Of a stretch of DNA of 64,000 bases, positions 20,101 to 63,400 are shown one piece after another (position 1 is the first letter of the stretch; each line of letters begins with the position of its first letter). This DNA comes from Hormiphora californensis (taxonomy: Eukaryota; Animalia; Ctenophora), in assembly GCA_020137815.1 (NCBI GenBank), contig CM035353.1:8494001-8558000 (forward strand), written 5' to 3'. The position numbers and the translations under genes were made by a program. Under the pieces are notes generated by a model. The model searched no databases and was not told the DNA's origin. It was given only the letters and a program-made list of their open reading frames with translations.

Positions 20101-22877
20101 CATGTTATAATGCAGTCAGGTGAGGGTCACCTAGCGACCAGGGAGGTCAGGTGGTTAGGTTGATCAGTACACTGCAATGAGGTTGTACCAGGCTGTACCT
20201 TGTTGAGGTATAAAAGTGAACCTACCTGGTAAGGGGCATGGACGTTCATATAACTGAGATACAGGAAGAATGGTTGGTCAGGTTTCCTATTCTTGATGGT
20301 CTCCATAGCATGGTTGGTAAAGACTCTTGAAGAGTACTGACCCGCCAAGTCATACCTTATCTTATCCACCAGCTGCCCCTCACTGCAGCAGTATCAGGGT
20401 GTGTTATTCACACGGAGGGGAGTGTCGTGCTCAACTCAACAGGGTGTGTTACTGCACTTTGGGTACCTTGTGGCCCTGATCTGTGTTCGCGCCCCTCTGT
20501 TTTCATGCCAGGGGTTGCTGTCAACTGTCAAACCGCTGGTAGTGAGACCACTAGCGAAGTATGCGGTCTCACTACCAGAAACTACAGATCTTAAGGTTGA
20601 TTACCTATTCAGATAGTTGTACCTCAGATCGAAATACTTCACTTTCTTGTTCTTGACAATCCCAGACCAGGGAGGCAAACCATTTTGCCTGTTGACTTTC
20701 TTCTGAAGTTTCCTTAAACTTCGCTCCAATTTCTGGCTGGCATCGTAGGCACCCAGACTCCCACAATCATACGAGAAGTGGTCGTGGGCACAGAAGTAGA
20801 AGCCCAGGAAAGTATCAAATCCCCTCATAACGGGGGTGTGCCGCCAAGTCCTCCATCCTAGATGCCACTTTCCTGTCAGAGATCAGAGATGTTTTTGAGC
20901 AAAATACAATTAAAAGCTGACAATTAAAGGTATACTACCTTATAATGGGGGACTACCTATAACAGCTGACAATTAGAGGTGCTACCTTATGGGGGACTAC
21001 CTATGGCGTGGGTAGAGTACCCGTAATGTTGAAACATCTCTCCAACAGTAAACTCATCCGTATCTAATCCCCATAACTCCCCCTGAAACACATTGATGTG
21101 GTCACATTGATGGGGTCACATTGATGTGGTCACATTGATGGGGTCACATTGATGTGGTCACATTGATGGGGTCACATTGATGTGGTCACATTGATGTGGT
21201 CACATTGATGGGGTCACATTGATGTGGTCACATTGATGGGGTCACATTGATGGGGTCACATTGTAGGTCACATTGTGGATCAATTGATGGGGTCACATTG
21301 TGGGTCACATTGTGGATCAATTGATGGGGTCACATTGTAGGTCACATTGTGGATCACATTGTGGATCACATTGTGGATCAATTGATGGGGTCACATTGTA
21401 GGTCACATTGTGGATCACATTGTGGATCACATTGTGGGTCACATTGTGGGTCACATTGTGGATCAATTGATGGGGTCACATTGTAGGTCACATTGTGGAT
21501 CACATTGTGGATCACATTGTGGGTCACATTGTGGGTCACATTGTGGACCACATTGTGGGTCACATTGTAGGTCACATTGTGGGTCACATTGTGGGTCACA
21601 TTGTAGGTCACATTGTGGGTCACATTGTGGGTCACATTGTAGGTCACATTGTAGGTCACATTGTGGGTCACATTGTAGGTCACATTGTGGATCAATTGAT
21701 GGGGTCACATTGTAGGTCACATTGTGGATCACATTGTGGATCACATTGTGGGTCACATTGTGGGTCACATTGTGGACCACATTGTGGGTCACATTGTAGG
21801 TCACATTGTGGGTCACATTGTGGGTCACATTGTAGGTCACATTGTAGGTCACATTGTGGGTCACATTGTAGGTCACATTGTGGATCAATTGATGGGGTCA
21901 CATTGTGGATCAATTGATGGGGTCACATTGTGGATCAATTGATGGGGTCACATTGTAGGTCACATTGTGGATCAATTGATGGGGTCACATTGTGGGTCAC
22001 ATTGTGGATCACATTGTGGATCACATTGTGGGTCACATTGTGGGTCACATTGTGGACCACATTGTGGGTCACATTGTAGGTCACATTGTGGGTCACATTG
22101 TGGGTCACATTGTAGGTCACATTGTAGGTCACATTGTGGGTCACATTGTAGGTCACATTGTGGATCAATTGATGGGGTCACATTGTGGATCAATTGATGG
22201 GGTGAGGGGTCACATTGTGGGTCACATTGTGGATCACATTGTGGGTCACATTGTGGGTCACATTGTAGGTCACATTGTAGGTCACATTGTGGGTCACATT
22301 GTAGGTCACATTGTGGATCAATTGATGGGGTCACATTGTGGGTCACATGGTGGATCAATTGATGGGGTCACATTGTGGATTATGGAGCTACCTGTTGGAT
22401 GTTAGCTTCATGAAATCCAGTGTGTATGGGGTATCTTCCACTAATGAAGGAGGCCCGGGAAGGAGCACACATGGGTTGTCCATAATGTTGGTCTAGTATC
22501 ACACCTATAATCATGGGTGTGAGATGTTACTCACACTGAAACTATGCCCGAGAGGTGTGAGCTACAAACACAACGCAGCTAAATCAGTATCATGTTAAAA
22601 CACAGTACCTACCATTTTCAGCCAGGTTGTCAAGGTTGGGAGTTGAGATATCAGAACCCTGGTACCCCACATCGTTGTACCCTGGGAGGGATGTCAGATA
22701 TGATGTGGTACTGATATTCAAAGAGATAATGAGATCGGGTCACCAGACGCATGTTCAGAGTGCATGTAGAATGTAAATACATAGTATATAGAGTGTAGAC
22801 TACAAAACTGCTGCAGTACACTGACCCAGATCATCAGCGAAGATGAAGATGACCACTAACAACAGAAGTATCAGCAT
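17190..22877 (-). CDS. Arylsulfatase B/I/J-like sulfatase, ~13 exons
   Basis: Motifs FIFADDLGYNDVG, formylglycine signature CAPSRASFISGRYP, GKWHLG, RGFDTFLG, PFFLYLSYMNVHAPYQ, NTLIVFTSDNG, NFPLRGGKRSVFEGGIR, HLVDWYPT, AIRSGNWKLIVG and QLYHIKNDPYE across GT-AG exons. Confidence 0.92.
18288..19345 (+). mobile_element. Helentron/HINE (DINE-1)-like non-autonomous element in an arylsulfatase intron
   Basis: 5' 26-bp inverted pair gttgccctatgatttgagctaccttt (18288) / aaaggtagctcaaatcatagggcaac (18391). The 3' ggcaac is followed by hairpin tgcgc-ttgcca-gcgca, and the same 3' motif recurs at ~33607-33632. Confidence 0.55.
21090..22380. repeat. Intronic minisatellite, 12/13-bp units (GGTCACATTGTG / GGTCACATTGATG) with higher-order blocks
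   Basis: Fills the arylsulfatase intron from ~10 nt inside the donor to the acceptor. Confidence 0.95.
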
Positions 22878-23707: not shown

Positions 23708-24272
23708 GAGGCGATCAGATCGGGTCGGCATCTCCAGACAGAGCGACACTGTCAGGCCAATGCTCTGACCACAGTTCTCGCGCGAGGCCGCGAGAGAAAT
23801 GAGAATAGGGTCAGGTCAATGCTCTGACAGATCGACAATGCTCTCAGATCGGGTCGGCACCTCCAGACAGAGCGCTCAGATCGGGTCGACACCAGCTCCA
23901 GACAGAGTAACAATGCGCTCAGATCGGGTCTGCACCTCCAGACAGAGTAACAATGCGCTCAGATCGGGTCGGTACGTCCAGACAGAGCGACAGTGCGCTC
24001 AGATCGGGTCGGTTATACCTCCAGACAGAGCGACAATGCGCTCAGATCGGGTCGACAGCAGCTCTAGAACGAGTGACAATGCGCTCAGATCGGGTCGACA
24101 GCAGCTCTAGAACGAGTGACAATGCGCTCAGATCGGGTCGACACCAGCTCTAGAACGAGTAACAATGCGCTCAGATCGGGTCGACACCAGCTCTAGAACG
24201 AGTAACAATGCGCTCAGATCGGGTCGGCATCTCCAGACAGTGCGCTCAGATCGGGGATCTGCACCTCCAGAC
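23708..24272. repeat. ~41-bp minisatellite (caatgcgctcagatcgggtcg..ctc[c/t]aga..gag), ~12 copies
   Basis: Conserved core gcgctcagatcgggtc with variable flanks. Confidence 0.9.
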
Positions 24273-25493: not shown

Positions 25494-28400
25494 TCACATG
25501 TATTTCTCATCATCAGACGTGTCAGAGTCCACACAGGGGAACTCAGGACTACTCAGACAAATACTACTCTCATCGTCACTCGTTGTGTTTTCACGGGAGT
25601 CAGGGCGAAGGAGATGTTTCCGGGGCTTATCAAGGCTCATCCGCTCAAAGGCTGTTAGGATTCGATCACAAATGGCACTCCCGTCAGATGTTCGGAACAT
25701 GTATGGTTTCACCTGAAGGAGGATATATTAATTAGTTACATTAAGTTAATTAATTACACAATTAGTTACATTAAGTTAGTTAATTACATAATTAGTTAAA
25801 TTGATAATTAGCCATCTAAACTGCATTATTACAAGATTGGCAGCTATGTGGTGTATTACCTGTCCATTAGCTATCAGGGCATCTAGGGAGATGGAGTCCT
25901 TGTTCCTTGTTACCCGGAATATCTGACACACTGGGATCACCGTCTAGAGGGAGATAGAGAACTGGATTATAAATGGGGATAACCGTCTAGAGGGAGATAG
26001 AGAACTGGGTTACAAATGGGGATAACCGTCTAGAGGGAGATAGAGAGAGGGTTATAAATGGGATAACCGTCTAGAGGGAGATAGAGAGAGGGTTATAAAT
26101 GGGATAACCGTCTAGAGGGAGATAGAGAACTGGGTTATAAATGGGGATCACCGTCTAGAGGGAGATAGAGAACTGGGTTACAAATGGGGATCACCGTCTA
26201 GAGGGAGATAGAGAACTGGGTTATAAATGGGATAACCGTCTAGAGGGAGATAGAGAACTGGATTATAAATGGGATAACCGTCTAGAGGGAGATAGAGAAC
26301 TGGATTATAAATGGGATAACCGTCTAGAGGGAGATAGAGAACTGGATTATAAATGGGATCACCGTCTAGAGGGAGATAGAGAACTGGGTTACAAATGGGG
26401 ATAACCGTCTAGAGGGAGATAGAGAACTGGGTTACACACTGGGATAACCGTCTAGAGGGAGATAGAGAACTGGATTATAAATGGGGATCACCGTCTAGAG
26501 GGAGATAGAGAACTGGGTTACACACTGGGATAACCGTCTAGAGGGAGATAGAGAACTGCAGGTTACACACTGGGATAACCGTCTAGAGGGAGATAGAGAG
26601 AGAGTTGCAAATGGGGATAACCGTCTAGAGGGAGATAGAGAACTGGGTTACAAATGGGGATCACCGTCTAGAGGGAGATAGAGAACTGGGTTACAAATGG
26701 GGATCACCGTCTAGAGGGAGATAGAGAACTGGGTTACACACTGGGATAACCGTCTAGAGGGAGATAGAAAACTGGATTATAAATGGGATAACCGTCTAGA
26801 GGGAGATAGAGAACTGGGTTACAAATGGGGATCACCGTCTAGAGGGAGATAGAGAACTGGGTTACAAATGGGGATCACCGTCTAGAGGGAGATAGAGAAC
26901 TGGGTTACAAATGGAGATAACCGTCTAGAGGGAGATAGAGAACTGGATTACAAATGGGGATCACCGTCTAGAGGGAGATAGAGAACTGGGTTGCAAATGG
27001 GGATCACCGTCTAGAGGGAGATAGAGAACTGGGTTACACACTGGGATAACCGTCTAGAGGGAGATAGAGAACTGGGTTATAAATGGGGATAACCGTCTAG
27101 AGGGAGATAGAGAACTGGGTTATAAATGGGGATAACCGTCTAGAGGGAGATAGAGAACTGGATTATAAATGGGATAACCGTCTAGAGGGAGATAGAGAAC
27201 TGGGTTATAAATGGGGATAACCGTCTAGAGGGAGATAGAGAACTGGGTTATAAATGGGGATAACCGTCTAGAGGGAGATAGAGAACTGGGTTATAAATGG
27301 GGATAACCGTCTAGAGGGAGATAGAGAACTGGGTTATAAATGGGGATAACCGTCTAGAGGGAGATAGAGAACTGGGTTACAAAAGGGGATCGAAAACAGA
27401 TCACATATCATTACTAAGGTTACATGTTTGATTGTTGTTTACTAATTACCACGGGCTAATCACTAACTAATTACCGTTTCTGTTGGGAATTTCAGCTTTA
27501 CAAAGTCCTGTGTAATCTCTATCTTGACGGTGATGTCAGTGTGGTTGTAAACCTGTACCTCATACTCAGCCGCTGAATCCTGGTAGTGGGAGAGAGATGG
27601 AGTTGGGTTAGACATATAGCATGGGTAGTTGTTAATGGGAGAGAGTTAGAACAGGGGGAGAGAGAATTGGGTGACGGAATTGGGAATTAATGGGGGAGAG
27701 AAGTTGGTTAAAGAGACTTGGGTTAGAACACATATATCGAGAAGGGACGTTGGTGGGATCAATTGGAGATATGAATAGCAGAAAACAACAACTACAACTT
27801 CAAGTACTCACCTTTTTGGTGACAGTTGAATCTGTCTTTTTGATCCGTTTGAAGCTCTCCTTTATTTTACTATATGCCTCAGCACTCTGAAAAGTTGATC
27901 ATTTCTTTTATAGTTCATGAATATATTCAGACATACATGATATGGAACATTGTATTGACAAATAAACGGAGTGTAATATCAGTCAACTAAAATACGTACC
28001 TTTTGGCTGCAGAACTGAATTTGTGTGACAGGGGAATGATTTGCACCAGTTAGTACCCACAGGGATATTATCTTGTACTTTTTACTGAAACTCACTCTCC
28101 TAACGTCCTCCAGGAAATACCGCTCTTTTATTGTCATGTTGTTGGGGGACCGGATAAAGATGGCTTCCGAGGAAATCTGTAGAAATGGGAGAATGGTTGA
28201 GAAATTGTTAATAGGAACAACTGATAAAACCCAATTACGTTTTCAGGCGCCCCGAAGTTATCTAAATTGGAGAAATAACAGCCATTTCAAATCCTAAAGA
28301 TCTACCTCTAGCAGCAAGGTATCTCCTGAGAGAGTGGTCCCTTGGTGAACAAGATATGAAGTTCTGGGTAGTTGAGATCTCAGAGGTTCCAGTGTCAGTT

Positions 28401-31400
28401 GATTCTTCGTAAGGTGCGGGAGGTGCTCCTTGATGGTCCGGATCCGGGGATTAAAATGTAGGCCAATATGAGTCTTGCCTGTGGAAGGGAGTAGTCATTA
28501 CAGTGTTTTGGGAGAGGGGGCAGTTATTACAGGTCCTGATCCCGAATTGTATTGAGGTGAAGCGGGTCCCCTCTCAGTGGGGCAGTAAGAGCATTAGGAC
28601 CTGATTATCACAATACGACACCTACCCTCTAGTTTGCTGACCAGTTTCAGGATGGTCTTGTAGTTCACCTCCAGTGCTACCATGAACCCAACTATATTCT
28701 TAATACACCCATACAGAAGTTCATCCTCGTCTTGCTCTATTCGCTCCCTACCACGCTTCGAGTGTTTTGCATACCTGTAGGAGATTAAATAAGGAATTAA
28801 ACCTGTAATACATGACTGTTGATTGTTGAAATGTGCCAGGAAACTTTCTACAAATATTCAAACAGTACAATGAGCACCTCGATGAACCACTCATTCAGCT
28901 GCAGAATGTCAGTTACAATTGTTACCTGTCCTGCATCTCCTGGGGGCACCTGTTCATACCAAGTGCCTCCCTCTCTACATGGACAGCATCGTAAAACACA
29001 CCCTCCCACATCTCATCTCGGTCCCAGATGGGTGACCGGTTCTTGCCCAGTAACTCCTCGTACATGTAGCGCCGTGCAATGTCCGTGTCGGGTGGTTGGT
29101 GAAGTAGTGAGGAAGCGAGGGATATGATACTGGTGCTCTGGTCGGGTGAGGTCCCTGACTCAGGGGTACCTGCAGGGAGAGGGAGATTGGGAGAGGGGAT
29201 TACAGAGGGAGATTGAAAGAGAGCTAGGGAGAGGGAGATGTATAACCCTCAGTGTCCCTAGATTCACTAAGTATCATCCTTGCCAATCACCCTAGCACAC
29301 CACCAACTACATTTGTAAGCACCCCTAACACAACTCAGTCGATGATACCTGGAGGGTTTGGACTACGTTGAAGTATGGTTTGTTGGCCACCACCACCAGG
29401 CTCACTTATATCACTCTCCGAGGGGGGACGGGCCGATTTCACTAGTGTCACTTGTGGTACTGTCTTGGAATCTGTGTAGCAGGAGATGTATCATTAAACT
29501 CACAATATCACACACTGCTCAAAATCAAAACTCATCCAATTCAGAAGGAAATCAATCTAAATCGTTGTTAAATCGTTACCTGTAGTGGTGGTGGTGGGGG
29601 CAGGGACAGCTGGTGGGGGTGGGGTAGTTCCATTTAGTAACTCCCTTATCTCACCGATAACTGGGGACTCTAGGAGGGGCGAGGAGGGGGGTTTACTAGG
29701 GGGTTGTCCCGGAACCCCACAAAACACTATTCCCAAAAGAAACAAAGAGTGTCCCGTTACACAACACACACGAAACACAACACACACTAGTGACACAATA
29801 AAGCCCCCTATTATACACGTGGTATATAACACACACATTGTAGTGTACTTGCAGGCTGTCTTGTAAAGCGGAGTATGGAGGCGGCAAGGCCACCCGGTAC
29901 ATAGCTCCTATAATACCCTAGTGTGGTACTGTGGTATGTAACTAAATACATAGCTCCAATACCCTCCACGGAGAGAGAGAGAGAACAAGGCAAAGTGGGT
30001 ATAAAACTGTTATTGGAGCTCGTTCAGTCTATCTCACACGTCAGGTATAATACTGTCGGGCAACTCCATACAATACCTGATGTAGCACTAGCGGTACTGG
30101 TAGTACTGGCTCGTTTTGATTTGCTATCCCCTCGTGACGGGGCCGTCTTCTCAACTGTGTGGGATGATAATGTAGTCAGGTCATAACATTAGTGATGTTT
30201 AATAGTCAGGATCTGGCACATCTGATGTTATAGGGGGTTGATAGCAGAACTACATGCCTTACCGTAAGCCCCAACATGTCGAGTGTAAGCAACTTGTAGC
30301 AAGGTAAACAGACTGCCTATACTAGTGTTGTTCACCCCTTCCCCACTCTCCACCCCTCGTGTGCAATGACGGAGCAAGGTACTGAGCCCCTTGTAGACCT
30401 CAGGCGACACTTGCTGAAACATGGGTAACAAGTTATAAAAAGAGATGTCGAGATGTACTGCAGGAGATTAGAAAGAGAGAGGTACCCAAGCATATCTTCT
30501 AGCCAGATATTGTATAAAATGAGGTATATTATCTTCTAGCCAGATATTGTATAAAATCCTTATTATAATTTGCAAATGAACGTCGAAGTGGTGGCCGTTC
30601 GTTCAGCGGTATCTAAGCGACAGTGCTCCTTCATAAAACACTTCATATGACGAAAGCTGTAAAGCTGTTATTCACACTTTCTGAAGTTCCAGTGGAAGTT
30701 TCTTAATATTTCGAATGACTTTTAACAGGCCATTCCCCATAGTTACCAATTCAGTTGCCATGGCAACCGTTGAAAGGGGCAAAAAGAACCACCCGGCGAA
30801 GCCGGGTGGGTTATCAAAAAGCCCTTACTTGAGGCGCACCCAATGGGTGCGCTAGTCTCTATTATAATTTGGAGATGAACGACGTCGAAGTGATGGTCGT
30901 TCGTTCAGTGCGTTTCTACGCGACAGTGCTCCTTCATAAAACACTTTATGTGACCAAAGCTGTAAAGCTGTTACTCACACTTTTGGAACTTCCAGTGGAA
31001 GTTTGTTAATATTTTCGAATGACTTTTAACATGCCAGTCCCCATAGTTACCACTTCAGTTGCCATGGCAACGGTTTTATTGACGTTGAAAGGGGCGAAAA
31101 GAACCACCCGGCGAAGCCGGGTGGGCTATCAAAAAGCCCTTACTTGAGGCGCACCCAATGGGTGCGCTAGTGAGGTATATAATCGAGATTAGCTGGACCG
31201 GTACCTCATGAACTATGAAGTCCTGGGTATGAGTCTTCTTGCTGGTTGTACCACTAAGAGCTCTGTTAGCGACTAGGGTCCTGTAAAAGACATTATCTTG
31301 TTAATACTAGTATTATTGTGTAGGGATTTATCCGAGCCAATTGTTTCTCTAGCGAGCTAGATCATCAATTTCATTGAAGTACCTGAGTGACTCATCTTGT

Positions 31401-34400
31401 AACAGTGTAGCAAGTTTCTTGTTTTGATACCAGGGAATTCCTAACCCATCTAGTACATTGTTTATCATTTTACTGCGGTGAGATATTAATCAGATATAAA
31501 GCTACTATAGCTAAGGCCTAAGCTAACCATCAAAATAAAATCAGTTCTTTCCCAGCTTGTATAAATTGCGCTTGAACTGTCCCGTAAGAACTAAGAGTGT
31601 TATAGCTATGTGAGATATCTCTCTCTGACTAACCTGACGAAAGCAATATCCTCACTGGACGATGTTTTGAGGGGTCCATCTCCATTAGTTCTCCCAGTAC
31701 CTCCCCCATTATTACTCCCTCCTCCCCCGCTGGTGGAGCCCCGGGGCTCAGTAGGGGCGAGAAGGGACCGCCGCTGCACCACCGGGCTCGAGGTGTTACT
31801 TGTCGTGGGTGAGGGGTAGCCTGGTGAGATATAACACGTTACAATCATTTACAGTTATTACAATATGTACCACTACTATTTAGTGTTTACTGTCACAATT
31901 GATTCTCTCTGTCCCACATAGTCTAGTGCCGCACCCATGATCACTAAGTGCTTTTAATTGGTATATAGTTACCTGATGAATGAGATGAGCGAGGTTTTGA
32001 TATCCTCGTATTGTCAGTATCGTCCCCCAGGTCAATTCGGTAGGATGGGGTATCTTCTGGTAGTCCTAATCCACCTCTATCAGGGGGAGATCTTGTGTGA
32101 GGAGAGAGAGAGGGGTTGTGTGAGGTAGACAGCCACCAAAGTATATATTATAGGCTGTTAATGATATAATGCGATGCTATTGTAGTGTTAGGTGTATTAC
32201 TATTAGGGGACGTGGTATATTGGAATGTTAAGCATCAGCTGCTGCACTATACACGCGGGATAATCATACTATTATTAAAGCAAATAGGGAAATCCCATGT
32301 CCCGTTTTTTTAACCAAATATGGCACAAAATTCCTGGAAATGGCCTTTTGCACGTGTTGTCCCTAGAGGGACCCTGGCAACCTGCCAGCTTGAGCCTTAA
32401 ACTGCACGTGCATCCTTGATTCATCTCTCTGCCGGTTGTGTGATTGATCGTTTGCTCGATTTGATCTGTTCACCACGTTTCGTGAACATGACTACTCAAC
32501 TTCAACACAATCGCCAGCGAGTTTGGAGGAGCCATATGTCCCAAACTGGCGCTGACGCCTATAGACTACGTGATAGAATCCTACAAAAGAGGTGATTATT
32601 ATTCAAAAAAAGTTGTCAACACACGTAATAACAAAGTATCAATGGCACTAATAAGAAATGACAGTAATACGTGAAAGTATTTCCGGGAAAAGATTTTGCC
32701 AATGTACTCCTTCATAAAATACTTCAGGACCTGGCAAAAGAGGACCCGTGGTTTTTCTGTCGAAAGAATCCCTGTGGTTAATTTACCTGATAAATTTACT
32801 GATTTTAAAAATTTCAAATGATTCTACACTATTTGCTCAGTTTACTGTATGACCATCCCTGACATTCGCCCGTAGGGCGAGCGGGCTTACTAGTAATAAT
32901 AATAATAATAATAAAGGGTTTTTAGTATACTGCTCAGTCCAGACAGGGCTGGATCATTGACATGAGTCCAACACTGCCCAGATTCAGAGCGGTACACCAA
33001 GATAATAAAACCAAAATCATAATAGAGGTAGCGTATTATGGGGCATTATAGGGTAATATTGGTAGCGATATGTATAATAGCATGCTAAAACTGTGTTTCC
33101 ATGTTTTTCACGCACACACACGATTTAGAGTTTAGCTGCTGGAGATCAACTCTGCATCAAATTCAAGATCTGATGATAGCTTGTATGCGAGAGAGAGAGA
33201 GAGAGAAGGCCAGATTTAATATATAACGTGGTATACACTGCTTCACAACACATTAGTATAATTCGTACTGCAACTGAAAAGTTGATTCATCCGAATCAGA
33301 TGATGAAAAGTCGTCCTCCATCCTTTGTTCCACCTTTACCACGTGTTGCTTGGTAGGTTGGACACCACCACCCTCTTGTTCTGTGATGGCAAGACTCCCC
33401 TTCCTGGCCGCTTCTTCTAGCTTTATTGCTCTGGTATGGTGTGATCACGTGTGTATATTGTACGAGGGGTGCACCCAGAAACACGTTCTTCCCATTATAA
33501 ATCCCACCATCATGGATGCTAATTATAGTCAGACCCCGATTTAATTTATACTGGGAGGGTAAACTTCCCCCGAAATATTTTGGCGGTTGATGGAAGCTAG
33601 GGATGGTAACCTTTGCGCTTGCCAGCGCAGTGATTATTCTAAAATGCAAAGAGTTTTTATGTAAAGATGATAGAGATATGCTAAAATATCGTTGGGTGTA
33701 TATAGCTATCGCGAAGAATATCACATGTTACCTACTAAATGCAATATAACTGTATATAACAGTTCGGTCTCAAGCCTCACTGATCATTTCAATGTTTTAT
33801 ACCCCTTATAGCGAGTTATAAATGAAGATATAAATATATTTCTAGCGGTTGAGTGCTATATAAGAGATGCCCATGCCGAAGAGACGCCCATGCCGAAGTA
33901 TAAAAACCATACATATTTTTATCAAAAAACATGTTTCGTGATCCCTCTTGGTCATATTAAGTGGTTGACTTCCACCCTGACCACATTATTCATGGTTTCC
34001 ACGATGGTGCTTTGGTGGTCTATCATGGCCCTCTGTGTTACAGCAAACGGGGAATATCCTATACAGGCTCCTCCTGATGGGGCATTTTCTAGGCAGGCTC
34101 CTCCAGATGGGGCATTTCCCAGGCAGGCTCCTCCAGATGGGACATTTCCCAGGCAGGCTCCTCCTGATGGGGAATATCTTAGGCAGGCTCCTCCTGATGG
34201 GGAATATCTTAGGCAGGCTCCTCCAGATGGGACATTTCCTAGACAGGCTCCTCCAAATGGGGCCTGGTCAACACCACCAACAACAAGTATAGGAGACTGG
34301 TCAACACCACCAACAACAAGTATAGGAGACTGGTCAACACCACCAACAACAAGTATAGGAGACTGGACAACAGATCCAACAACAAGTGTAGGAGACTGGT

Positions 34401-37400
34401 CAACACCACCAACAACAAGTATAGGAGACTGGACAACAAATCCAACAGGAGCCCGCGTCCGCGACTGCCAAATTATAACCTACAACGGATTCCTCAAAGA
34501 AAAGTGTACAGATGAACGTTTTTACAATGACGCCTTTCGGTGTGCATCCTCCAGGAAGGTGGTTTACAAAATAAATGACCGGCCATTAACACTGGGGTTG
34601 TTTGTGCCATATATGCGGTATACTATGCAAATTCAATATCGGTGCCAGAGTGATGATGGGTTCTACCAAATGTGTGGTTTGGTCCAAGATTTTGGAGTAT
34701 CTGTCTATACGGTGGGGTCAGATGGGAGTATTGCACTGTGCGGTTACCAGCTTTGTGAAGAGACACCCGACCGATGGCTCATTTGCCCCCCACCCACTAC
34801 AGATGAAGGAACTTGTGATAACTCCTGTGACGATAAGACTGACTGCCAAGACGAATCATACTGCAACGGTGTTCAGTATGGGATCTATTGCACCCGCAAA
34901 AGGGAGCATAAAGTGCGCTACTTGGATCCTTCAAAGGTACGTTGTTTTTTATTTCACAAACAATATACGGGGGGGGGGGGGGGTACATTTGGTACAAATG
35001 TCACCAAATGTCACCATATCAGACACACCCCCACTCTACTAAAATAATGCGTAATATGAATAATTATTGTTTCAGATGTGCGCCCTTGTACCATATTGTA
35101 GGGATAAAAGTGATATAACGAACTGCTTTGTCGATAAGGGGACACCGGGTTCTTGCAAGCGCACCTATTCAGTGTTAGTAATAGGGATTATAACTTGCCT
35201 CAACCAATAAAACCCCATTAGATGGCATCAAAAGCCTTTTATTGGTTAATTTTCCACCTAACCGTCATAATGTTAATAAGCTAACATAACCTATAAAACT
35301 CCCATCAGCAATCCGGAAATTTTCATAATCCCTCGCCCGGAAATGCGATGTAGCACTCCGAATAACGGCTACTTTAATCAGCGTACATCCGACATTTCCG
35401 AAATTTTCATTGAGCCTCAAAAAACATTGTGCAGTGAGCCCCTTGGCATGGAACATACGAACTGTAGTGATCCTGATAGGATCTCAATTCTAGGGTAAGT
35501 AGTGGTGAAGCAGTTATAGTCCCTGGAAAATGACTAAGTCGGTTCAAGGTGCCCACCGTGCATTTTTTTGCAAATTTGATCCGCCTATTAATGTGTCCCA
35601 ACATCTAAAACCAACCCATTCGCACACACTGGAAGCATTGAATCACTTGTAACTCGCGTTTCCTGCTTGCTATGCTCCTGAAACTACCGGTAACGTGCTT
35701 AAGGGATCGCCTTATCCATTTTCCGTGGACTATAGTACAGCTTGGCGCTATCCTGATGCTCAAGTTAAAGTAGTGATTTTATCGTGGCCACATTCTTGTA
35801 ATTATAATTCGCCTTTATTTGTAGGTGCACGATGAACAACTACCCAATAACCGTGTCTATATTTGGGTACTGTCATGATTATCCACTCTGCGATGACAAC
35901 TACAACAACATATGCCTCTCGGTAGATACAGACTGTTCAATTCACAAAGGGCAGCTGTGCGATGGCCGCAAAGATTGTAGCTCCGAGGTTGACGAAGAAC
36001 AGTGTGTAGGGATCACAGTTCAGTTCGTTTGTGAGAGAAGGTTCCATACGGTGTACAAGGAGAGGCAGCCTCTCGCCCTCCCAATGTCTTGGGTGATGGA
36101 CGGGGCCGTAGATTGTCTGGATGGTAGGGATGAGAATGAGACTATTTGGCTGTCTTGTGGTCACGATGGAGAGTACAGGACATATTTAGAGCCCCTGAGT
36201 GGAAATACCTGCCAGGACGTCCTGATTTGTCCTGGTGATGGTGAGACCTTTATTCCGATGAATGAGCTATGTGACAGGATAAATACCTGCTCTTTCGAGA
36301 ACCAGTTGTGTGATGCAGCCATAGGCAGGGAGGTATTGGCTGTAGAGGCAGCTGTCAGCCGAGGTGAAATATGGACGGAACACTGTTTTCCAAATCCTGT
36401 GTACGACTTGGAATTGCAGTTGGGTAAGTGTCACCGTGTTGAGCACATGGATGGTGGTATGGTCAAAAGCGTTTTTGATGTCCATAAGCCGGTCATGGTC
36501 ACTCTTCCTACGCTAAAAACCAAAGAATGCTCCTATTTATTTGGAGAGCAATACGTCTACTCATCGTGCAACCACCGCTGTGCGAATGCCAAGTGTCCAC
36601 TGCGACCAGCCACTCGTGACACCTGCACCAACTATGGGATACAGCGAGTCCTATCTTTAGCTGACACTTTTCCACCCGATCTGTTGCCCTTGTTGAAAGT
36701 CCCTGGTGCACTGGGCCAGTATGAGAACCGGTACTTCCCGTGTGCGAACAAGAGGTGCGTCTTGTACAGGGATGTGTGCAACTTGAGAGACGACTGCAAG
36801 GATGGATCTGACGAGGAAAACTGTATCAACCACTTTAAGTGCACAAGAAGTGGCGTAAAACTTCCCAAAACCTCCGTGTGTAATGGAAAAATTGAGTGCA
36901 GTGACTTATCGGATGAATGCCAAGATCAATGCCCTAGCACAAACAAAAATATCTTAGCCAGCGGCTATGTCAGATGCTCCTGTTACATATTTGGAGCTCT
37001 GGCCACCCTGCTTAACATGGTAACTGTTTCTCGATCGATGTGGGGCTGCTGCAAACAAAAGAAATTGGAAACTTTAATGAATCAGGTCACCATACTTCTA
37101 GTTAGTATGGGAGATATTCTTATTGGCTTCTATCTCATCGGGATATCGGTTGAGGATCATACTCAACGAATGTCAGGGGACTACTGTGCGAAGAGATTTC
37201 AGTGGCTAACCTCTAAAGATTGCATTGTACTCGGTATTATCAGTACCATTGGCTCGCAACTATCACTTTTTGCGATGACTCTTCTGAGTTTAGTCCGCCT
37301 CAGAAATTCTTCAAGATGGATTAAAACAGGGTTGCGATCTGTCAAATCGATTTTAAAGATCGTTCTGTTGATTCTTACACCCATTCTGGTTAGCATTGCT

Positions 37401-50804: not shown

Positions 50805-50842
50805 CTGAACACACGCTGAACGAACGGCTTCGACTTCGACAC

Positions 50843-51097: not shown

Positions 51098-51455
51098 TTC
51101 GACACGACAACTCCAAATTATAATTAAGGATTTCTCACATTTTACTGCACAGGTGCAACTACTAGACAACAAAGAGAATCTGGGTACAGTAATCTTGTTC
51201 ACTCCGAGGGAGAGTGACGGGCTCTCATCGAATCAGGTTTGTTACTTTGTGCAGTACTAGTGTTAAAATCTTGTGTGAGTTGACCGTACTCACTGGACCA
51301 TCAGCCAGCAGGTCCACGGCAACGGGACTAAGCCCTGATACCCCAACATACAGATGGGAGATCAGGGCTTAGCTGGCACGAAGAGCTCATTTCTGAGCTC
51401 CCCCCGTTGAGCTCACCTCACACACACATCACACTACACTACACTACATACACAC

Positions 51456-54444: not shown

Positions 54445-55276
54445 GATTGGTGTAGTTGCTTGGTTGTTTGGTGGTTAGTCTTTAAAGTGTAACGAGGCAA
54501 ACAAAGCAAGCGAATCTTCCCGGAGGGTACTGCACGTGCAAATAAGTAGAGACTATATCCCCACCCGGTTACCATAGTTACACGTGCAGTGCATCACCTC
54601 ACTCACAAACACTAAAACTAGTTCAAAAAGGTACCTGCAGTAGGTGTGTAACTCATGCTTGACCTCGATACAGGAACGTTTGAGGGTAATGGGAGAGTTA
54701 GTAGATCAGCTGACAAGACCCGTTCTGTTTTGTTCCCCTGTGACGAGACTGGCACTACTGTTAGTAACCGTTAACTCAGATCGCTACCTGGGTATGTCAA
54801 TAGTTATTCAACTGAAGGGGTGGGGGATCTGATAATAAATTGGTGTGTTGTTTCTGGGTTCATTATCATATTGAGCACTTTAGCTCCAATTCCGTTGACT
54901 TTCACAGCGTCATTCGAGATTCAAGTCTCACTTAATTGGGAGTTGGCGCTGTATTCATTATATAATTTGTTTGCAGGTGTTATCCAAGCTGTGTGTGTGT
55001 GTTTGAAACCCAACTCGACTGATAAGACATCTGACATGCACTCCCCTCCTTCAATATAGTGTACTGCCTTCCAGTGAAAGGTACACTTTGGAGCTGTGTG
55101 GTATATAGCGTGTAATTGTCCAGATCATTTACCATCAAGCAGTCTTCTTTTTGATTTCTGCTCTATGAAAAGTAGACTGTCAAAGATATTCTCAATTGAT
55201 CACACGCCGCAGTTCGTAGCGAGTGTACTTTTTCTTCACTTTGCTGTCACTATTAATGTTTCCTTTCAAGAATCCA

Positions 55277-58065
55277 ATGGAGAAGTTCATTAAGCTGAGA
55301 GAATCTAATGCAACCTCTAAAAAGAGAGTGGTGAGTCATTTCGTTTTTAGTACTCCACCTTTTTATCTTGCTAACTTGCTTTAAAACCCAACTGAAAGAT
55401 CTAACTTGCCCTGATTATCTTTACTGCTGCCTTGTCTGACTGTAACCAGCAACCATCCCCACCCCTTCACTCAATCAGTAACACTCCCAACCAGGCAGCA
55501 TCCCCAATCACTCACTGTACTTATTGCAGGAGTATGAGAGCATGTACGAGGATATAATGGTGAATGAGCGCTTCTCCAATGCCTGGAAGGATGCTAAGGA
55601 GGACGCCACATATGACAAGTAGGCCACCACTTATTGGATAGGATAGGATTTGTTGAATAATTGTGCAGTGGTTCAAGTACCCGAAACATATGACAAGTAG
55701 GGTATTTGTGGGTAATTCCAGTACCCGAAATAGATCTTTGTCACTACTCGCTGTATGTTGGGACAATTTATCAGCAACAGTTAGTTATGTTTTGTGTTTT
55801 ATGACATCCTCACTGAGGATTCCTCAGTTATGATGACTTTGTGTACGAGGAAGAGGAAGAGGAGGATGAGTACGAGGATATTGTGTTCTTTCAATCCAGT
55901 AGTACAGCAATGTCATTGCCTCCCCTTCCAGAACCAGATGAGGATATCCCAGGACAACCACAACCATCATCTCTCCCCCTGCCACTTCCACCGGATACCA
56001 GTGAGTAGCAATATGCCCCGCCCCCTAAATTACGTTATTTATGTCGTGATTTTCACAGTATTTCACAGGGCGTCTCAGACTGAAACCCACTGCCCCCAAT
56101 CAATCCAATATCTTTCTCCAATATCTATCTCCCCCTACAACTCCCTATAATCACAGGTGATCTGCTTGCACCAGTGTACTCTACAGTGAAGAAGGAACGT
56201 CCTACATCCCTTAAATCCACTAAACAGGGATCACTACCAAGGAACAGCCTTGCTAACAGTCTTGGTAGCAGGTTAGTGAGGTACTGACTGTAACATCGTA
56301 CACGCTTCGGCCCGGTGCGGAGAGGACAGTATTTTATGAGACAAGGGGAGACAAGTTAGAATCTTCTTTATACCTGTGGATACAAATACAGAAGGTGATG
56401 CAAATCAGATACAGAAGTTTACTGACCAATATTTATTTCAAGATTGGCGTCTCTGGGAACGGATTCCAGGAAATGTCAGAGTCTCCCGCGGAATGCCTCA
56501 GGTCACAGTGTGGTAATGAAGGACGTGAGGAATCCCCTATTTACACCCTCCCCCGCTGGGTAACGAACTATTAGTTGTTGTACTAGTTTGAGCACTCTGT
56601 TGATTTTGGATCAAGGGACATGATATCTATCTAGTCAATAATCGCTGTAGTTTAGTTTAGATCAAGTTGACAGCTCATGTCCCAACAGGAGTCCTGTTAC
56701 AACAAGAAAGGTCTTCACTCCTGTCGAGGCTGAGGAGGAGGAGGATATCTATGATACACCAAGCAGCATTCAGGTATCCTTCATCTCTATTGCGTCACTG
56801 TTTAATGTTTAGATTCCCCCGATAATCTAGACGTGTTTTCAGTTTTAGTATTTCTATATCCCTCCTCTGTTTTTGCAGATGCCCCCGGTTCTGCCTCCCA
56901 AGAAAAAGTCCCTGAATAAGAAGCCAGTACCGTCCCGTGCCAGTAGTGGGTCAGTTATACCCTCCAGAGCCAGCAGTGGGTCAGGGGCCTCCTCATTCAC
57001 AAGACAGCGTGTTAACCGCTATTCCAGTGTCGATAGTTCGGTATGTCATCTTGATGTAAGCTACTTTCATTCATAGTAACTAGTTTCTAATATCAGAAGA
57101 TAAAACTACTTGTTCCTGTTATAGAGGTCTACTACAAGTGGTACCAATGATGACGAGTGTGTGGGCTCTCTCATTGCACGGAGCTCTAAAAGTGACAAAC
57201 TGGAGAAGAGACTCAGTAAGAAAGGTATTTCCCCATTATGATTCCCTGAAGTTGGAATTGTTCCCTAGCTAACAGCTATATCCCGGTGTTTCAGGTGTGT
57301 CAGGAAGTGATGCCTTCAAAAGGAGGAGTGTGAACCTCCCTGTAACAGGATCTGAGGAGGATCAACTCAGAAAGTCATCTCTAGCCCATCGTGATCTGAG
57401 TAAGATTCCCTCTTTATATCAATACAATGTTGTGTTAGCCTGACACTGCCAGGGTTATAATTATCTCTTTATGTTAGTGTCATGTGGTAATATTTAGCTG
57501 AGAAAGTTCCTCAGTCAGACTGAGGAACTTTCTCAGTCTCGTGGCGAGCTTCTGGTTCATGAGATGTTAGTTATACCCAGATCAAATAAGATGCAGCTGC
57601 TAGGTAACTGGACAGCTAACAGCTAATACTCCCACTTGCACTCTAGGGTAACTGTGTTTAACAGCTAATACTCCCCCATTCTAGGAGATGACTGGAGTGA
57701 GATAGACGACATTATGTCAGCACTAAAGATAGATATAGATACAGCCCAACAGAGAAGATCCACCACCACCAGGATCCCAGGTTAGTGGTGCCTTGTGGTA
57801 TCCCGTCCACGCTAATATTCTATCACTATTCAAATCTTTCTGGCTGTCCCTTCTAGTTCTGGCTTGGTTCACCACTATCTCAGATAGTGTTGGGCACGTC
57901 ACACCATCCCCTGTACGTCGCACGCGACCGACGTAGTTGGCTGCCAAACATCTATGAGAAATATTTATCTCTTTTTTACGCAGTCTTTGACTCTCCGAAT
58001 AGAATTAGAAAGAAGAAGAATAAAACTATTCCTTATCCCCATGTCACCTCTCCCCCCCCCCTCTG

Positions 58066-58160
<95 letters not shown>

Positions 58161-60446
58161 TTATTCCCGCATGCCAGATCCAATTGTTTACATAACCCAT
58201 TGCCTTGGTTTTATATGTTGAAAATATTCCCTTCCTTTTGTTTCGCAAGCTTTGTTCCTTATTCTATACAGTAGTAGAGTCGGTTGTGGGAAGTTGGGTC
58301 TGGAATTATAAATTTGACTTGCTGATATGTTTAGTGGCTCTATAAAAAGTCCAAAGCACCATCCCATAGGTCTCTACCACCCCCGGTTCACTAATTATTC
58401 GTAATTATGTGATTTATGACGTTATGGCCAATTAGCACTAATAATACCAGTTCCTGGCCACTTATAGCTTAGATTTTGATACCAGATGATAGAGGATGAC
58501 TAGATTAGTGGGCATACAAAATTTGAGGTCGATCGGATTTATGGTCGAGGAGTTATAGCCGTTTTTCCGTTTGGCTGGCGGTTGGCTGGCACCACGTGGG
58601 ATTACGGGTTTAGGTCGTCGTAGGAGGTCGTGGTTGGTCGCATTCGATCGGGCTTGATGAGGTGATCAAAACCTAGTGGGGCCAGACCTTGGCCCCACCC
58701 CGTTCTGGGGTTATTAGGCTTTTTCGGTTTCCCGCCAAAATATTTTCCCGCCAAAACCAAAAAAGCCTAATAACCCCAGAACGGGGTGGGGCCAAGGTCT
58801 GGCCCCACTAGGTTTTGATCACCTCATCAAGCCCGATCGAATGCGACCAACCACGACCTCCTACGACGACCTAAACCCGTAATCCCACGTGGTGCCAGCC
58901 AACCGCCAGCCAAACGGAAAAACGGCTATAACTCCTCGACCATAAATCCGATCGACCTCAAATTTTGTATGCCCACTAATCTAGTCATCCTCTATCATCT
59001 GGTATCAAAATCTAAGCTATAAGTGACCAGGAACTAGTATTATTAGTGCTAATTGGCCATAACGTCATAAATCACATAATTACGAATAATTAGTGAACCG
59101 GGGGTGGTAGAGACCTGTGGGATGGTGCTTTGGACTTTTTATAGAGTCACTAAACATATTAGCAAGTCAATTTTAAATTTCCAGATCCGACTTCCCACAA
59201 CCGACCCAACTACAGGTTCATCTAAGAGCGATAAATTGTTATCCATGCTGTTATAATACTACTCAGTGGAAATATTACAACTGATTTGTAGTTGATGTTT
59301 GTTTATCACTATACCTATCTATATAGGGTCCTCTAAAGCAGTAGGAAGCACACTGTCTGAGTGTCTGATCGTGCTTCTTAAAATCATTCACTCTTCCATC
59401 TTTCCACCTTGTAGAGAGAACACACGTACTATCTAGTCAACTATAAATTGCAACATTGACAGACAAATCTTAATTCCACTGTCCTGTGTTATCTTTAAAG
59501 ATGGGCTCCAATTATCTCCACACTCCAATGTGACAGTTCCATAGACGTGTTAGATACGTGTTTAGTAATCGTCCTGAACCACAATGGTAATGTACACGTG
59601 TGACAGCTTTCCATGTGGTATTGAATGTGTGTGTGTGAGTTTTATAGAAACTCAGTTAAAGGGTATAATTCATTTCCCGGAGGGGACATTGTTAGTGTAG
59701 AAACACAAATATAATTCATAATTCCCGTTGATCTGCTGGACCGCACCCTCTTTCTTTGCTTCCTAACAGACATATTATCCTGTTGTGGTAGACTGGACAA
59801 TATCATAGTATAATAATAATATCACAAAAAAACGTTCTGTTTTCAAATCATTTCATTCACAATAGTTGTGTTGATAGGCAAGTTGTGAGCTGCTCCACAT
59901 ACCTGATCTTGATCCGTTATATACTGGTCAATCTATTTAAAAGTGACACCACACAGTTACTTATTGGTTGGGCACTAGGGTGGGGCATCACTTGAAGTTT
60001 TAATTATATACGGAACGCATTGCTCAACCGTGGAAGGGAATGAAGTATGATTTAGTGCAGTATTTTATATGATTTGCTTGGTTCCTCTTCTGTTTCAATT
60101 GATGTGATCATTATTGACAGATCTCTCACAGAGACAATTCAACACTAATTCCATTACTATCTGATCCGCATATTCAAAGTTTACCACATTAGATATAATA
60201 TTCCCGCATGATATATGTTTATGTAATAACATGTCGTAAAATATATATTCCTTGATCTCTCCCAATGATTATTGTTGCAGTAGAACTATAAAAAACACGT
60301 CGTGGCAGTTCTGTATGTGATTTGACGCTTGAAAGGAATGGGAATGGGAATGAGGTTATTGAGTAAGAGGAAGGGATATTATCATGATTATATAGAGAGA
60401 TCAGAGAGTGAAAAAAATGAATAGAGGACAATATCATGTAGATAAT

Positions 60447-60485
<39 letters not shown>

Positions 60486-63400
60486 GAGAGAGAGAGGACA
60501 TATAGTAGTAAACAGGTAAAGGTAGGCCGACTCTTATATATTGTGTGTAGTTGTATTGTCCTCCTTTTCTCTCTCTGTTATTGTGTTCTACTGTGCTGGT
60601 CCTCGGATCTGAAGAGCTATTACACCCCACTGAACTCTTCTTCACTCTTCACCGAATTACTCTGTGTACTTGGAAATAAACAGGGAACACGTGTGGACTT
60701 GGGGAACATTAAACAAGCACCAAGTGGAACAGTTCTGGAAGTTTTCAACAAGTTTGAACAGCTCCTTGTGTACCACATCCACGGGCCAGAGAGAGTTATG
60801 TTGAAGTCACGAACAAGCTTTGTCATTGACGGCCGTAAAATGAAGGACACAGTACAGCTAGGGAACAAAGGTAAATTGTGTGTGTCTAGACGCAGTATGT
60901 GTCTTGTGTTTATACTTGCTCCCCAGTCTCCTTAGACAAGATAAATTACTGTTCACAGACCCAAACTTAGCGTACTCGGAGTCTGGCGCTGCTAGACAGA
61001 GATCTTAGGAGTTAGGTTGGACTATATCAACGTCTGTATACGGGTTATATGATCACCATTCACCCTCGTCCTAAATATTAGGGATTATGTCACAGTATAT
61101 TATGTAACACCCATAAATAGAGAATTGTAACCATTACTATGTAGCCTGCTGAACATTTAGCTTCCTTTATAGCCTGTATTTTCAACATGGCGTCATCCAG
61201 TCCCTCTGTATAGCAAGAAGGTCCCACGCTACCTCAATATACCCCCCCCCCTGGTTACATCAACACTGCTGGCCCTTGTTGTTACTCAACAAGCTGCTGG
61301 CCCACCTTTAATAATAATTTATTAATATTTACTCTATGCTTAGTTTATTAAGTTAACAAGGAATGTTCCCAGTGTTACTAAATACATGTGTGTGTGTATG
61401 TGTGTGTGTGTGTGTGACCTGCTATAGTAGTGTAATGTTGCTAGGCGGGGCCTCGAGTTATTGAGTTTTGGAGTTGTAAAGAAGATCACTGAAGCAGAGA
61501 GAGTGGATTGAGGGAGTTTGGGAATGTGGAAATATAGAGAAAGATAGAGGATTGTAGAGAGAAGCTGAAAATGCTATTTGTAACACTACCTTGTGAGTTG
61601 GGGTTCTTTATATATACCTTTATATATACCTCAGTAGGCAACATCACCGATCTGGCGATCAGTTAGGGAGAATTAGAGCTTGTTTCTTTAGCTACAGTCC
61701 TTAGTCCTTTAAATGGCTCGGTCTTACTGCATGATAGATAGCTGATATGATACTATTGTCTGTACACGATTTTAAATTTTGCAATTTTTCAGGTTCTTGC
61801 TTTTCTCTACCTAGTTCTCTTCATTTTGCAATGGTTTTTAGATTTAGTTATTGGCATCCAGTTTCTAAATACTAGTATATCTCTGCTCAAGATGGCACTA
61901 GTTGAAGCAACATTCCACCCCACCACAATCACTGAAGATGGGGGTGGTGCAACATTCCACCCCACTACTGAAAGTGAGGGTAGTCCAGGGGAGGGTGGAT
62001 TAGCTGAGGTGTCCATTCTTAGTGATCTTACTGAGACTGAGGAGGATTATATTGGTAATAAACTAGCGGAGAATATATATTATATGATCTCTGCCGGAAT
62101 TGTTGTTGTGTGTTTGGCCCCTCGATCAAAAAACGGATAGGAAACTGTTTAATTAGATTCCATATTAATGTAATTTTATGGATCTAACCCTGTCCCCCTC
62201 TCTCCAGATAAGACCCTGCTGCCCAAACTAACCCTGTCCCCTCTCTCCAGATAAGACCCTGCTGCCCAAACTAACCATGTCCCCTCCAGATAAGACCCAG
62301 CTGCCCAAACTAACCCTGTCCCCCTCAACAGATAAGACCCTGCTGCCCAAACTAACCCTGTCATCCTCTCTTCAGATAAGACCCTGCTGCCCAAACTAAC
62401 CCAGATCCCACTCTCCAGATAAGACCCTGCAAGATTGGTTGGACAGGCTGGAGATGGGAGAGCTAAAGCCCATGCTGGAGCTAAACGGGTGGGATCACAT
62501 CGAGTTCATCAAGGGTGCCATGGGCAAGGAAGATATAGTGGCACTTGGTATCAACAATGAACGAGTCAAAAAGTACGTGATGTTATATCGGAGAAATCAA
62601 AATGATTGTTATAACAGTCGGACCCCGATTTACCGGAACCCCGATGTACCGCGCAAAATATCCTTTTCCCCTAGTATCCCGGTATATCGGGGTCCGACTG
62701 TACAATGGTTAACACAGTTGGTGTCGTCATGATACCAAGATATTTATTTTAGGAAGTTGCTTGACTCAGTAGAGGTGGATCTGGTATCATTTCAACACGG
62801 CAGTATACCAGAGACTGTAGAGGAATGGTTAAAAGAGATACGTCTCTCCAAATATCTCTCAAAGTTTATCGCTCAACGCATTGGTTAGTTTATTAACCCT
62901 GTCAGGCAAATGCTCTGACAGTTTCAACCACAATCTTACCGATCTTCCCTCTCCTTTTTCTACAAGGCCCATGTCTGTTCCTTTCCATTTACTTCCCACC
63001 CTGTTATATCTTTATTATCCTTCTGTTATCTCCTCCCAACGGTCCAACACCCTCCCTTCCCAGGCTCCATATCGAGAGTGCTGGCTATTTGGGAGATAGA
63101 GCTCACTACTATTCTTGGCATTGAGCCCATCGGTCACAGGAAGAGGATTATGAAGAGTATTAAGGATCTGAAGTCACTACAGAAATCTCTTGACGAGGCC
63201 GAGAAGAACAAGGTTTGAAATTCTGTAACTCGTAGTTTGAAAGGTTGTATTTCTCCCGTGACAGTTCTGTCATTGTGAGGGAAACTGGGAAAGTGTCAAC
63301 TCAAAACGACCATTGGCTTGGGCACGTCGCGGCCCTCTGTGTTTGTGGCCGTCTGTGTTTGTGGCCGTCACATTCGGAGTGGGGCAGCTACCCAGCCAAA

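What the first reader, a model, noticed from the sequence alone, without database searches (positions are those of the whole stretch)
20940..62430. Recurring pattern: intronic tandem repeats built from the adjacent splice site
Seen: in three unrelated genes the intronic tandem repeats contain the splice signal plus terminal exon bases. Acceptor arrays are at 25932-27391, 43933-45463 and 62184-62430; donor repeats are at 39405-39555, 20947-21004 and 55607-55702. Other repeats abut junctions (40631-41148, 39825-39935, 25730-25810, 12375-12856, 21090-22380). Each unit is locus-specific, so they arose independently, and copy number runs from 2 to ~34. Inference: a mutational process nucleates duplications at exon-intron boundaries (possibly splicing- or transcription-coupled), and the spliceosome must cope with dozens of look-alike sites. 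This could be an undescribed route of intron expansion, intron gain or splice-site selection.
Basis: partly seen in the sequence, partly recalled or inferred. Interest (0 to 1): 0.85.

Follow-up and report, generated by a model that had tools for sequence, protein, structure and literature searches.

The report
Comb-jelly splice-junction "mirage" repeats
In three genes of a comb jelly, six exon-intron borders have been copied into the neighbouring intron (2 to 34 copies), a repeat type already known from lancelets and a human gene, and likely a tolerated by-product of frequent local DNA duplication whose spare splice signals would mostly be skipped.

Summary
The window is ctenophore DNA: its MADD gene is 74% identical to Mnemiopsis MADD. 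Six of 138 modelled splice sites lie inside local copies of themselves. The acceptor arrays hold 34, 13 and 6 sites and the donor repeats 3, 2 and 2. Homology and one RNA contig show that the copy next to the exon is the working one. Four repeats recur in contigs of two samples, so they are not assembly artefacts. The feature is already described: amphioxus 'mirages' (PMC3087553, PMC3902484) and the human F7 VNTR (PMC1557585). The scan noted it before in other windows of this genome and in at least 20 genomes. With short introns allowed for, junction enrichment is only about 2-fold: straddling 6 of 21 vs 4.4 expected (p 0.26); straddling or within 10 nt 11 of 21 vs 5.6 (p 0.01). Best reading: slippage or end-joining duplications at GC-rich junctions, filtered by selection. 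Unexplained and post hoc: all five tandem straddling units are 43-45 nt and carry at most 18 exon bases, which leaves a fixed-size, junction-targeted lesion open. No intron gain was seen.

The parts
25932..27390 (-). A1: acceptor array in MADD intron 29; 34 acceptor sites (33 decoys plus live 25943); unit about 43 nt = 25-32 intron nt plus 11-18 exon nt
   Evidence: junction colinear with Mnemiopsis P0161 and by eye with relative P0002
43930..45463 (-). A2: acceptor array in MADD intron 6; 13 sites (12 decoys plus live 43946); unit 44 nt = 30 intron plus 14 exon nt; last decoy 57 nt upstream and in frame
44400..45333 (.). 934-nt element with about 15-nt terminal inverted repeats and a 6-nt target duplication (ATCTCT), inserted into one A2 unit after the array formed
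   Evidence: target duplication read from the printed flanks
62184..62430 (+). A3: acceptor array before a SAM-domain exon; 6 sites (5 decoys plus live 62419); unit 39-44 nt with 12 exon nt
   Evidence: RNA contig joins the exon ending 57780 to 62419, and DNA contigs of two samples cross units
39423..39552 (-). D1: donor array in MADD intron 15; 3 donors 45 nt apart; first copy (39539) live; use of a decoy would add 15 or 30 residues in frame
20945..21004 (-). D2: duplicated first 44 nt of arylsulfatase intron 4 with 4 exon nt, in a 128-nt intron; decoy donor has the same score as the live one
55608..55701 (+). D3: displaced 16-nt copy of exon end plus donor, 78 nt downstream, in a 209-nt intron of the SAM gene
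40630..41148 (-). 34-nt array (about 15 units) of branch-point and pyrimidine-tract sequence ending 1 nt before the live AG at 40628 (MADD intron 11)
39821..39935 (-). 31-nt array starting at the donor of MADD intron 14; units open with a weak donor look-alike
21089..22380 (-). 12-nt array (about 105 units) filling arylsulfatase intron 3; not a junction copy
12374..12856 (+). (ACAG)n microsatellite filling intron 9 of the amino-acid transporter gene; not a junction copy
25730..25798 (-). 30-nt AT-rich repeat ending 17 nt upstream of the last MADD acceptor
25494..47959 (-). host gene MADD (DENN plus death domain), 31-exon model, 982 of 1330 residues identical to Mnemiopsis leidyi P0161; one 1-nt frame break near 41547
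55530..63826 (+). host gene with SAM domains, 14 exons modelled; four downstream introns confirmed by an RNA contig
17230..22877 (-). host gene arylsulfatase, 13 exons modelled in open frame

Best explanation
These are 'mirage' minisatellites: tandem copies of an exon-intron border that likely arise by ordinary slippage or end-joining duplication at GC-rich junction sequence, likely grow by unequal exchange, and likely persist because the copy next to the exon stays intact and would be the one the spliceosome mostly picks. Shown: the anatomy, that the exon-proximal copy is the working one, and that this genome duplicates short stretches everywhere. Inferred: the repair route; selection against copies reaching far into the exon; choice of the site nearest across the exon, with decay of rare mis-spliced messages.
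For: Local duplications occur in every compartment: 21 non-simple intronic loci, about 10 outside modelled genes, and coding repeats whose periods are all multiples of 3 (30, 33, 24, 42; 30), the mark of a selection filter. Introns are short (median 161 nt; 52 of 69 under 250 nt), so random placement on collapsed introns already predicts 4.4 (all introns) to 5.9 (own intron) straddlers against 6 of 21 seen (p 0.26 and 0.58). Echoes end just inside the exon: 0 of 395 exon positions at 20-40 nt have a local copy, against 1.3% in intron interiors. Repeat-bearing sites are richer in GC (0.50 vs 0.41, p 0.004, 6 sites; 0.49 vs 0.41, p 0.0001, 13 sites) and in G/C runs (p 0.048 and 0.005). A1 has 10 of 13 matching bases between its 5' flank and the live exon on the 43-nt diagonal; D1 and A2 have only 2-4 nt. 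Live copy: MADD junctions 6, 11, 14, 15, 29 and 30 align to Mnemiopsis without extra residues, and one RNA contig of depth 2 joins 57780 to the last A3 copy. Precedents: lancelet mirages reported not to disturb splicing, the most upstream F7 donor is used, and an exon-centric proximity rule holds for long human introns.
Against: Some enrichment remains: straddling or within 10 nt 11 of 21 vs 5.6 (p 0.01); junction echoes 2.3-2.8-fold over intron interiors (p 0.06-0.10); if only overhangs up to 17 nt are tolerated, 6 straddlers vs 2.3 expected (p 0.02). All five tandem straddling units are 43-45 nt while 29 other periods spread from 12 to 123 (resampling p about 1e-4, post hoc); plain slippage does not predict this. 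A3 has no flanking microhomology and an 8-nt filler, and the A1 match could be a truncated unit rather than a seed. D2 and D3 sit in introns under 250 nt, where the human proximity rule would favour the decoy. Raised GC could be a result of recombination rather than a cause. RNA evidence is one low-depth contig from a seawater run that is only guessed to be RNA.
Confidence: 0.6

Rival explanations
1. Junction-targeted mutation of fixed size: a lesion tied to the exon edge (a spliceosome or polymerase pause, a nucleosome linker, or paired meiotic breaks) would be repaired as a duplication of about 43-45 nt, and selection would then trim the set.
For: Five of five tandem straddlers are 43-45 nt. 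The three acceptor units begin at or just upstream of the branch-point-like motif and end 11-18 nt into the exon. About 2-fold excess near junctions. Spo11 double cuts peak near 32, 43 and 53 nt in mouse (10.1101/2019.12.18.881268, passages), and double cuts can yield tandem duplications, shown there between hotspots at larger scale (10.1101/2020.06.23.168138, passages).
Against: n = 5 and post hoc. Over all periods of 20-80 nt there is no 10-nt ladder (14 of 27 end in 2-5, 10.8 expected). A 43-nt array also lies outside modelled genes (23715-24255). Strict straddling is not above the null. G-rich RNA, which R-loops favour (recalled), fits D1 but not the C-rich acceptor units.
Confidence: 0.25
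2. The arrays are kept for a function: decoys would send a share of messages to decay or add in-frame peptides, or the added length would push a short intron into exon definition.
For: Decoys score as well as or better than live sites (A3 up to 14.3 vs 11.4; A1 9.5 vs 8.8). D1 decoys (+45, +90 nt) and the last A2 decoy (+57 nt) keep the frame without a stop.
Against: Units are unrelated between loci and differ between samples. A transposon-like element sits inside A2. No decoy-derived residues appear in Mnemiopsis MADD. No RNA contig showed a decoy in use (one junction covered; none laid).
Confidence: 0.07
3. The repeats are delivered by mobile elements that insert at splice sites and duplicate the target.
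For: The window is rich in small inverted-repeat elements, one inside A2. Summed contig depth is very high at 39888-39951, beside the 39.8k repeat.
Against: The units of A1, A2, A3, D1 and D2 are built from each locus's own exon and intron bases and show no shared element. The A2 element interrupts a unit, so it came later.
Confidence: 0.05
4. Assembly artefact: junction sequence repeated by the assembler.
For: One 1-nt frame break in MADD near 41547 may be a consensus error. A1, A2, D2 and D3 were not checked in reads. One of the two samples may be the source of the assembly.
Against: Contigs from two samples cross unit borders of A3 (X1 62334-62605, X5 62247-62358) and D1 (X1 39478-39552), and depth rises on the 39.8k and 40.6k units. 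A1 shows 11 variants in the first 18 nt of its 34 units. A2 holds an insertion with a target duplication.
Confidence: 0.03

Closest known systems
Amphioxus 'mirage' minisatellites (Adh3, globins BflGb6/BflGb9, troponin C, PGBD5). Seen: PMC3087553 passages and section 16; PMC3902484 passages. The original Adh paper (PMC117041) is not held and is known only through these two.
   Same: Tandem copies of intron end plus exon start, or exon end plus intron start; both borders affected; units carry AG or GT; unit lengths within the reported 10-160 nt; normal splicing apparently kept; origin stated to be unclear.
   Different: Ctenophore rather than cephalochordate. Five straddling units cluster at 43-45 nt with at most 18 exon nt, against 150-160 nt in the globin cases. 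Up to 34 sites against 3-7 units in the globin and PGBD5 cases. Copy-number polymorphism and somatic instability were not shown here.
Human F7 intron 7 37-bp VNTR (PMC1557585; abstract and Discussion read)
   Same: The first unit holds the real donor and identical donors follow; the most upstream one is used. D1 has this layout.
   Different: F7 is one donor locus tested in cells. Here the largest arrays are acceptor arrays, where the last copy must win, and nothing was tested in cells.
Intron gain by tandem genomic duplication (Rogers model as summarised in PMC3087553 section 16; PMC4974935 and PMC3443670 seen as search listings only)
   Same: Duplication of sequence that holds splice signals.
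   Different: That route makes a new intron between copies inside an exon. Here the copies land in an existing intron and the protein is unchanged.

Membership tests
amphioxus-type mirage repeat | tandem, minisatellite-like duplication that spans an exon-intron border | tested here: met
   A1, A2, A3, D1, D2. D3 is a displaced copy; 12.4k, 21.1k and 25.7k do not span a border.
amphioxus-type mirage repeat | units keep AG or GT splice signals | tested here: met
   decoys score within the range of the window's 69 real sites
amphioxus-type mirage repeat | the exon-proximal copy is used and the normal message is made | tested here: met
   protein colinear with Mnemiopsis at A1, A2 and D1; one RNA contig at A3. 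How often decoys are used was not measurable.
amphioxus-type mirage repeat | copy number differs between haplotypes | tested here: inconclusive
   base and indel differences inside A3 in sample S2; contigs give no copy number
amphioxus-type mirage repeat | somatic length instability (Adh3 case) | not testable with these tools
   no raw or long reads offered
intron gain by tandem duplication | a new intron or exon made from the copies | tested here: not met
   no added residues at MADD junctions 2, 5, 6, 8, 11, 14, 15, 29, 30; intron positions in relatives could not be compared
element-delivered junction copies (introner or MITE type) | one dispersed element shared by the loci | tested here: not met
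   units unrelated to each other; the one element in A2 is a later insertion

The most novel reading that the evidence does not exclude
Comb-jelly exon edges suffer a fixed-size lesion, repaired as a 43-45 nt duplication that runs from the branch point to about 14 nt into the exon (or the mirror image at donors), so the units record the footprint of a junction-bound machine or of paired meiotic breaks. The decoys in short introns would also force exon-side splice-site choice in an early-branching animal.
Probability: 0.15. Interest if true: 0.7.

Novelty: new member of a known kind. Interest (0 to 1): 0.3.

Why it matters
The feature is known but its origin is not. A genome where about 1 junction in 23 (6 of 138) carries exact decoys is a natural experiment on two questions. 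First, do duplications form preferentially at exon edges? Second, how does the spliceosome of an early-branching animal choose among identical sites? The donor duplications in 128- and 209-nt introns and the 34-site acceptor array give opposite predictions under intron and exon definition. The arrays also account for much of the length of several of the longest introns here and can mislead gene annotation.

Tried and rejected
No whole genome is held, so no genome-wide test was possible. No listed run is on record as RNA; this says nothing on expression. X9 matched only a dispersed element on 60500-64000; X7 and X8 laid nothing on 38800-40700, which is no proof of absence. Homologue searches with single exons found nothing for the MADD C-terminal exon and the SAM exon; the HMMER search and one search did find MADD relatives. 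A metagenome scan for MADD loci found none (192 pattern hits, 0 confirmed). A scan with a dispersed-element motif gave 4 contigs of 1.1-1.5 kb with no junction-type arrays, too short to test unit sizes. Rejected: (a) a working acceptor inside the last 40.6k unit, because Mnemiopsis places the junction at 40628 and the frame break is on the donor side near 41547; (b) a candidate MADD exon at 33430-33269, absent from Mnemiopsis and dropped from the model; (c) recursive splicing of the acceptor arrays, because no GT follows the AG in A1, A2 or A3 units; (d) a general 10-nt ladder of unit sizes; (e) purine/pyrimidine skew as a predictor of repeat-bearing sites (p 0.08-0.09). The idea from earlier notes that decoys differ from the live exon by silent changes could be tested only weakly: one informative position, in A1 (GTT in 23 of 34 copies vs GTG). 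Rows left out of the count of 21: simple repeats, repeats inside the A2 element, a (CA)n pair, coding repeats and a 13-nt donor echo near 46.8k that fell under the score cut. Literature searches for a ctenophore case listed none; the Hormiphora genome paper (PMC8527503, passages) showed nothing on such repeats in the 12 of 18 places displayed. Most subscription papers are not searched. Supplements of PMC3087553 and PMC3902484 were not read and may give unit sizes and exon overhangs for comparison.
Full report
Source and genes. No genome is held. The window is intron-rich animal DNA. A MADD exon found a Mnemiopsis leidyi protein at 83% identity, and a 31-exon model aligns to it at 982 of 1330 residues, so the animal is a ctenophore. 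The genus Pleurobrachia comes only from earlier scan notes and was not tested. I modelled five genes by hand: an amino-acid transporter (+10072-13656), an arylsulfatase (-22877-17230), MADD (-47959-25494), an LDLa-domain GPCR-like gene nested on the other strand of MADD intron 15, and a SAM-domain gene (+55530-63826). All 69 introns are GT-AG, median 161 nt, minimum 70. Frames are open except for one 1-nt break in MADD near 41547. Only MADD was checked against a full homologue; the others rest on open frames, Pfam hits to single exons and, for four introns of the SAM gene, an RNA contig.

The observation. The six named repeats are present and hold the live splice dinucleotide with exon bases. 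A1 has 34 acceptor sites, A2 13, A3 6, D1 3 donors, D2 and D3 2 each. D3 is a displaced 16-nt copy. A1, A2 and D1 are in one gene, MADD. Of the five 'abutting' repeats, the 40.6k array copies the branch-point and pyrimidine region and ends 1 nt before the live AG, and the 39.8k unit opens with a weak donor look-alike. The other three are not junction copies. A further degenerate acceptor duplication lies at 57617-57684.

Reality of the DNA. Contigs of two samples cross unit borders in A3, and sample S2 differs by bases and indels inside it. An X1 contig crosses a D1 unit border, and summed depth rises many-fold on the 39.8k and 40.6k units, though the tool warns that this is no copy number. 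One sample may be the source of the assembly. A1 has 11 unit variants in its first 18 nt, and A2 is split by a 934-nt element with terminal inverted repeats and a 6-nt target duplication; neither is expected of an assembler error.

Which copy works. MADD aligns to Mnemiopsis without added residues at every repeat-bearing junction when the last acceptor or the first donor is used. A second relative, P0002, reads through the A1 junction in the same way. For A3, one contig of depth 2 from a seawater run guessed to be RNA matches 62415-62510 and continues upstream in sequence of the exon that ends at 57780, so it joins to the last copy; another confirms three downstream GT-AG introns as joints and skips a fourth. 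Local strength does not explain the choice: with matrices built from the 69 introns, decoys score equal to or above the live site at A1, A3, D1, D2 and D3. Most decoys examined would shift the frame or add a stop; D1 (+45, +90 nt) and the last A2 decoy (+57 nt) would not.

Is it more than chance? I searched for local duplications without regard to splice sites (shift 10-200 nt) and kept 21 non-simple intronic loci. The null places one unit at random on introns with arrays collapsed, allowing overlap into the exon, since such a duplication always leaves one intact junction. Straddling: 6 of 21 against 4.4 (p 0.26; own-intron null 5.9, p 0.58). Straddling or ending within 10 nt: 11 of 21 against 5.6 (p 0.01; own-intron 7.8, p 0.07). 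For the 8 loci of three or more copies: 4 against 1.8 (p 0.07). If only overhangs up to 17 nt survive, 6 against 2.3 (p 0.02). A separate automatic test found junction-centred 12-16-mers with a local copy at 3 of 134, 4 of 136 and 5 of 137 sites, 2.3-2.8 times the intron-interior rate (p 0.06-0.10), and 0 of 395 at 20-40 nt inside exons. The window was picked for the pattern, so these p values are optimistic. The excess is about 2-fold and is not firmly established from this window alone.

Anatomy and mechanism. Coding repeats all have periods divisible by 3, which shows a general duplication process under selection. Exon overhangs of the five tandem straddlers are 4-17 nt by the finder (p 0.01 if uniform), and up to 18 nt in five A1 units. 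Repeat-bearing sites are more GC-rich and richer in G or C runs than other sites of the window. Flanking microhomology is clear at A1, short at A2 and D1, and absent at A3. I infer duplication by slippage or end joining, growth by unequal exchange, and loss of copies that reach far into the exon. For site choice, F7 experiments show that the most upstream of identical donors is used (PMC1557585, Discussion), and human data show that sites nearest across the exon are favoured when introns exceed about 250 nt, while short introns favour sites nearest across the intron (PMC9225289, passages). Applying this to ctenophores is inference. It fits the long arrays, and D2 and D3 in short introns are the awkward cases.

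What stays unexplained. The five tandem straddling units measure 43, 44, 43, 45 and 44 nt, while 29 other periods range from 12 to 123 (resampling p about 1e-4, post hoc). A lesion of fixed size at exon edges would explain this. Spo11 double cuts near 43 nt are one candidate, but no 10-nt ladder appears over all periods, and n is 5.

Comparison with what is known. Amphioxus mirages are minisatellite-like tandem duplications of either border, carry AG or GT, vary in length, appear not to disturb splicing, and were proposed as a route to intron gain; their origin is stated to be unclear (PMC3087553 section 16; PMC3902484 passages). The present repeats meet the features I could test. Searches listed no ctenophore case. 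Earlier scan notes report the same thing in other windows of this genome and 117 findings in at least 20 genomes; these are unchecked leads and not support. I had reached the mirage reading before opening them; they added the PGBD5 paper.

Verdict. A real feature and a new member of a known kind. Interest 0.3.

Noticed in passing
window 58271-59213: 943-nt near-perfect palindrome (96% self-identity on the opposite strand) inside the long SAM-gene intron; a foldback-type element.
   Followed up: no
window 51120-52407 and 53530-54832: Direct duplicate (95% identity) of a small spliced gene on the minus strand with a hydrophobic N-terminal stretch.
   Followed up: no
window 49854-50717 (+): 287-residue open frame that looks like the cysteine-motif and endonuclease end of a non-LTR retrotransposon (recalled resemblance); no Pfam hit.
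   Followed up: partly
window 33992-38762 (+): LDLa-domain GPCR-like gene nested antisense in MADD intron 15, with three in-frame coding repeats (30, 33 and 24 nt units).
   Followed up: partly
window 61892-62054 (+): Open frame with ATG and a phase-1 donor that could serve as an alternative first exon spliced to 62419 over a 364-nt intron; a further exon-like frame at 60621-60870 had no Pfam hit.
   Followed up: partly
window near 41547 (-): One extra base breaks the MADD frame at the end of exon 11 relative to Mnemiopsis; an assembly error or an allele; not covered by laid reads.
   Followed up: partly
window 46825-46777 (-) and 42704-42640 (-): A second strong donor follows an AG 44-64 nt into two MADD introns, giving small GT-AG stretches at the intron start that resemble recursive or microexon layouts.
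   Followed up: partly
window 62614-62702: Very high-copy short element (summed depth over 60,000 in X1), also present in marine metagenome contigs L001, L003, L004.
   Followed up: partly
window 23715-24255: 43-nt tandem array outside the modelled genes, made of a motif that recurs elsewhere in the window.
   Followed up: no
window 7989-8656 (+): A 650-nt (TC)-rich microsatellite starts just after a strong donor-like motif upstream of the transporter gene; possibly an untranslated exon.
   Followed up: no
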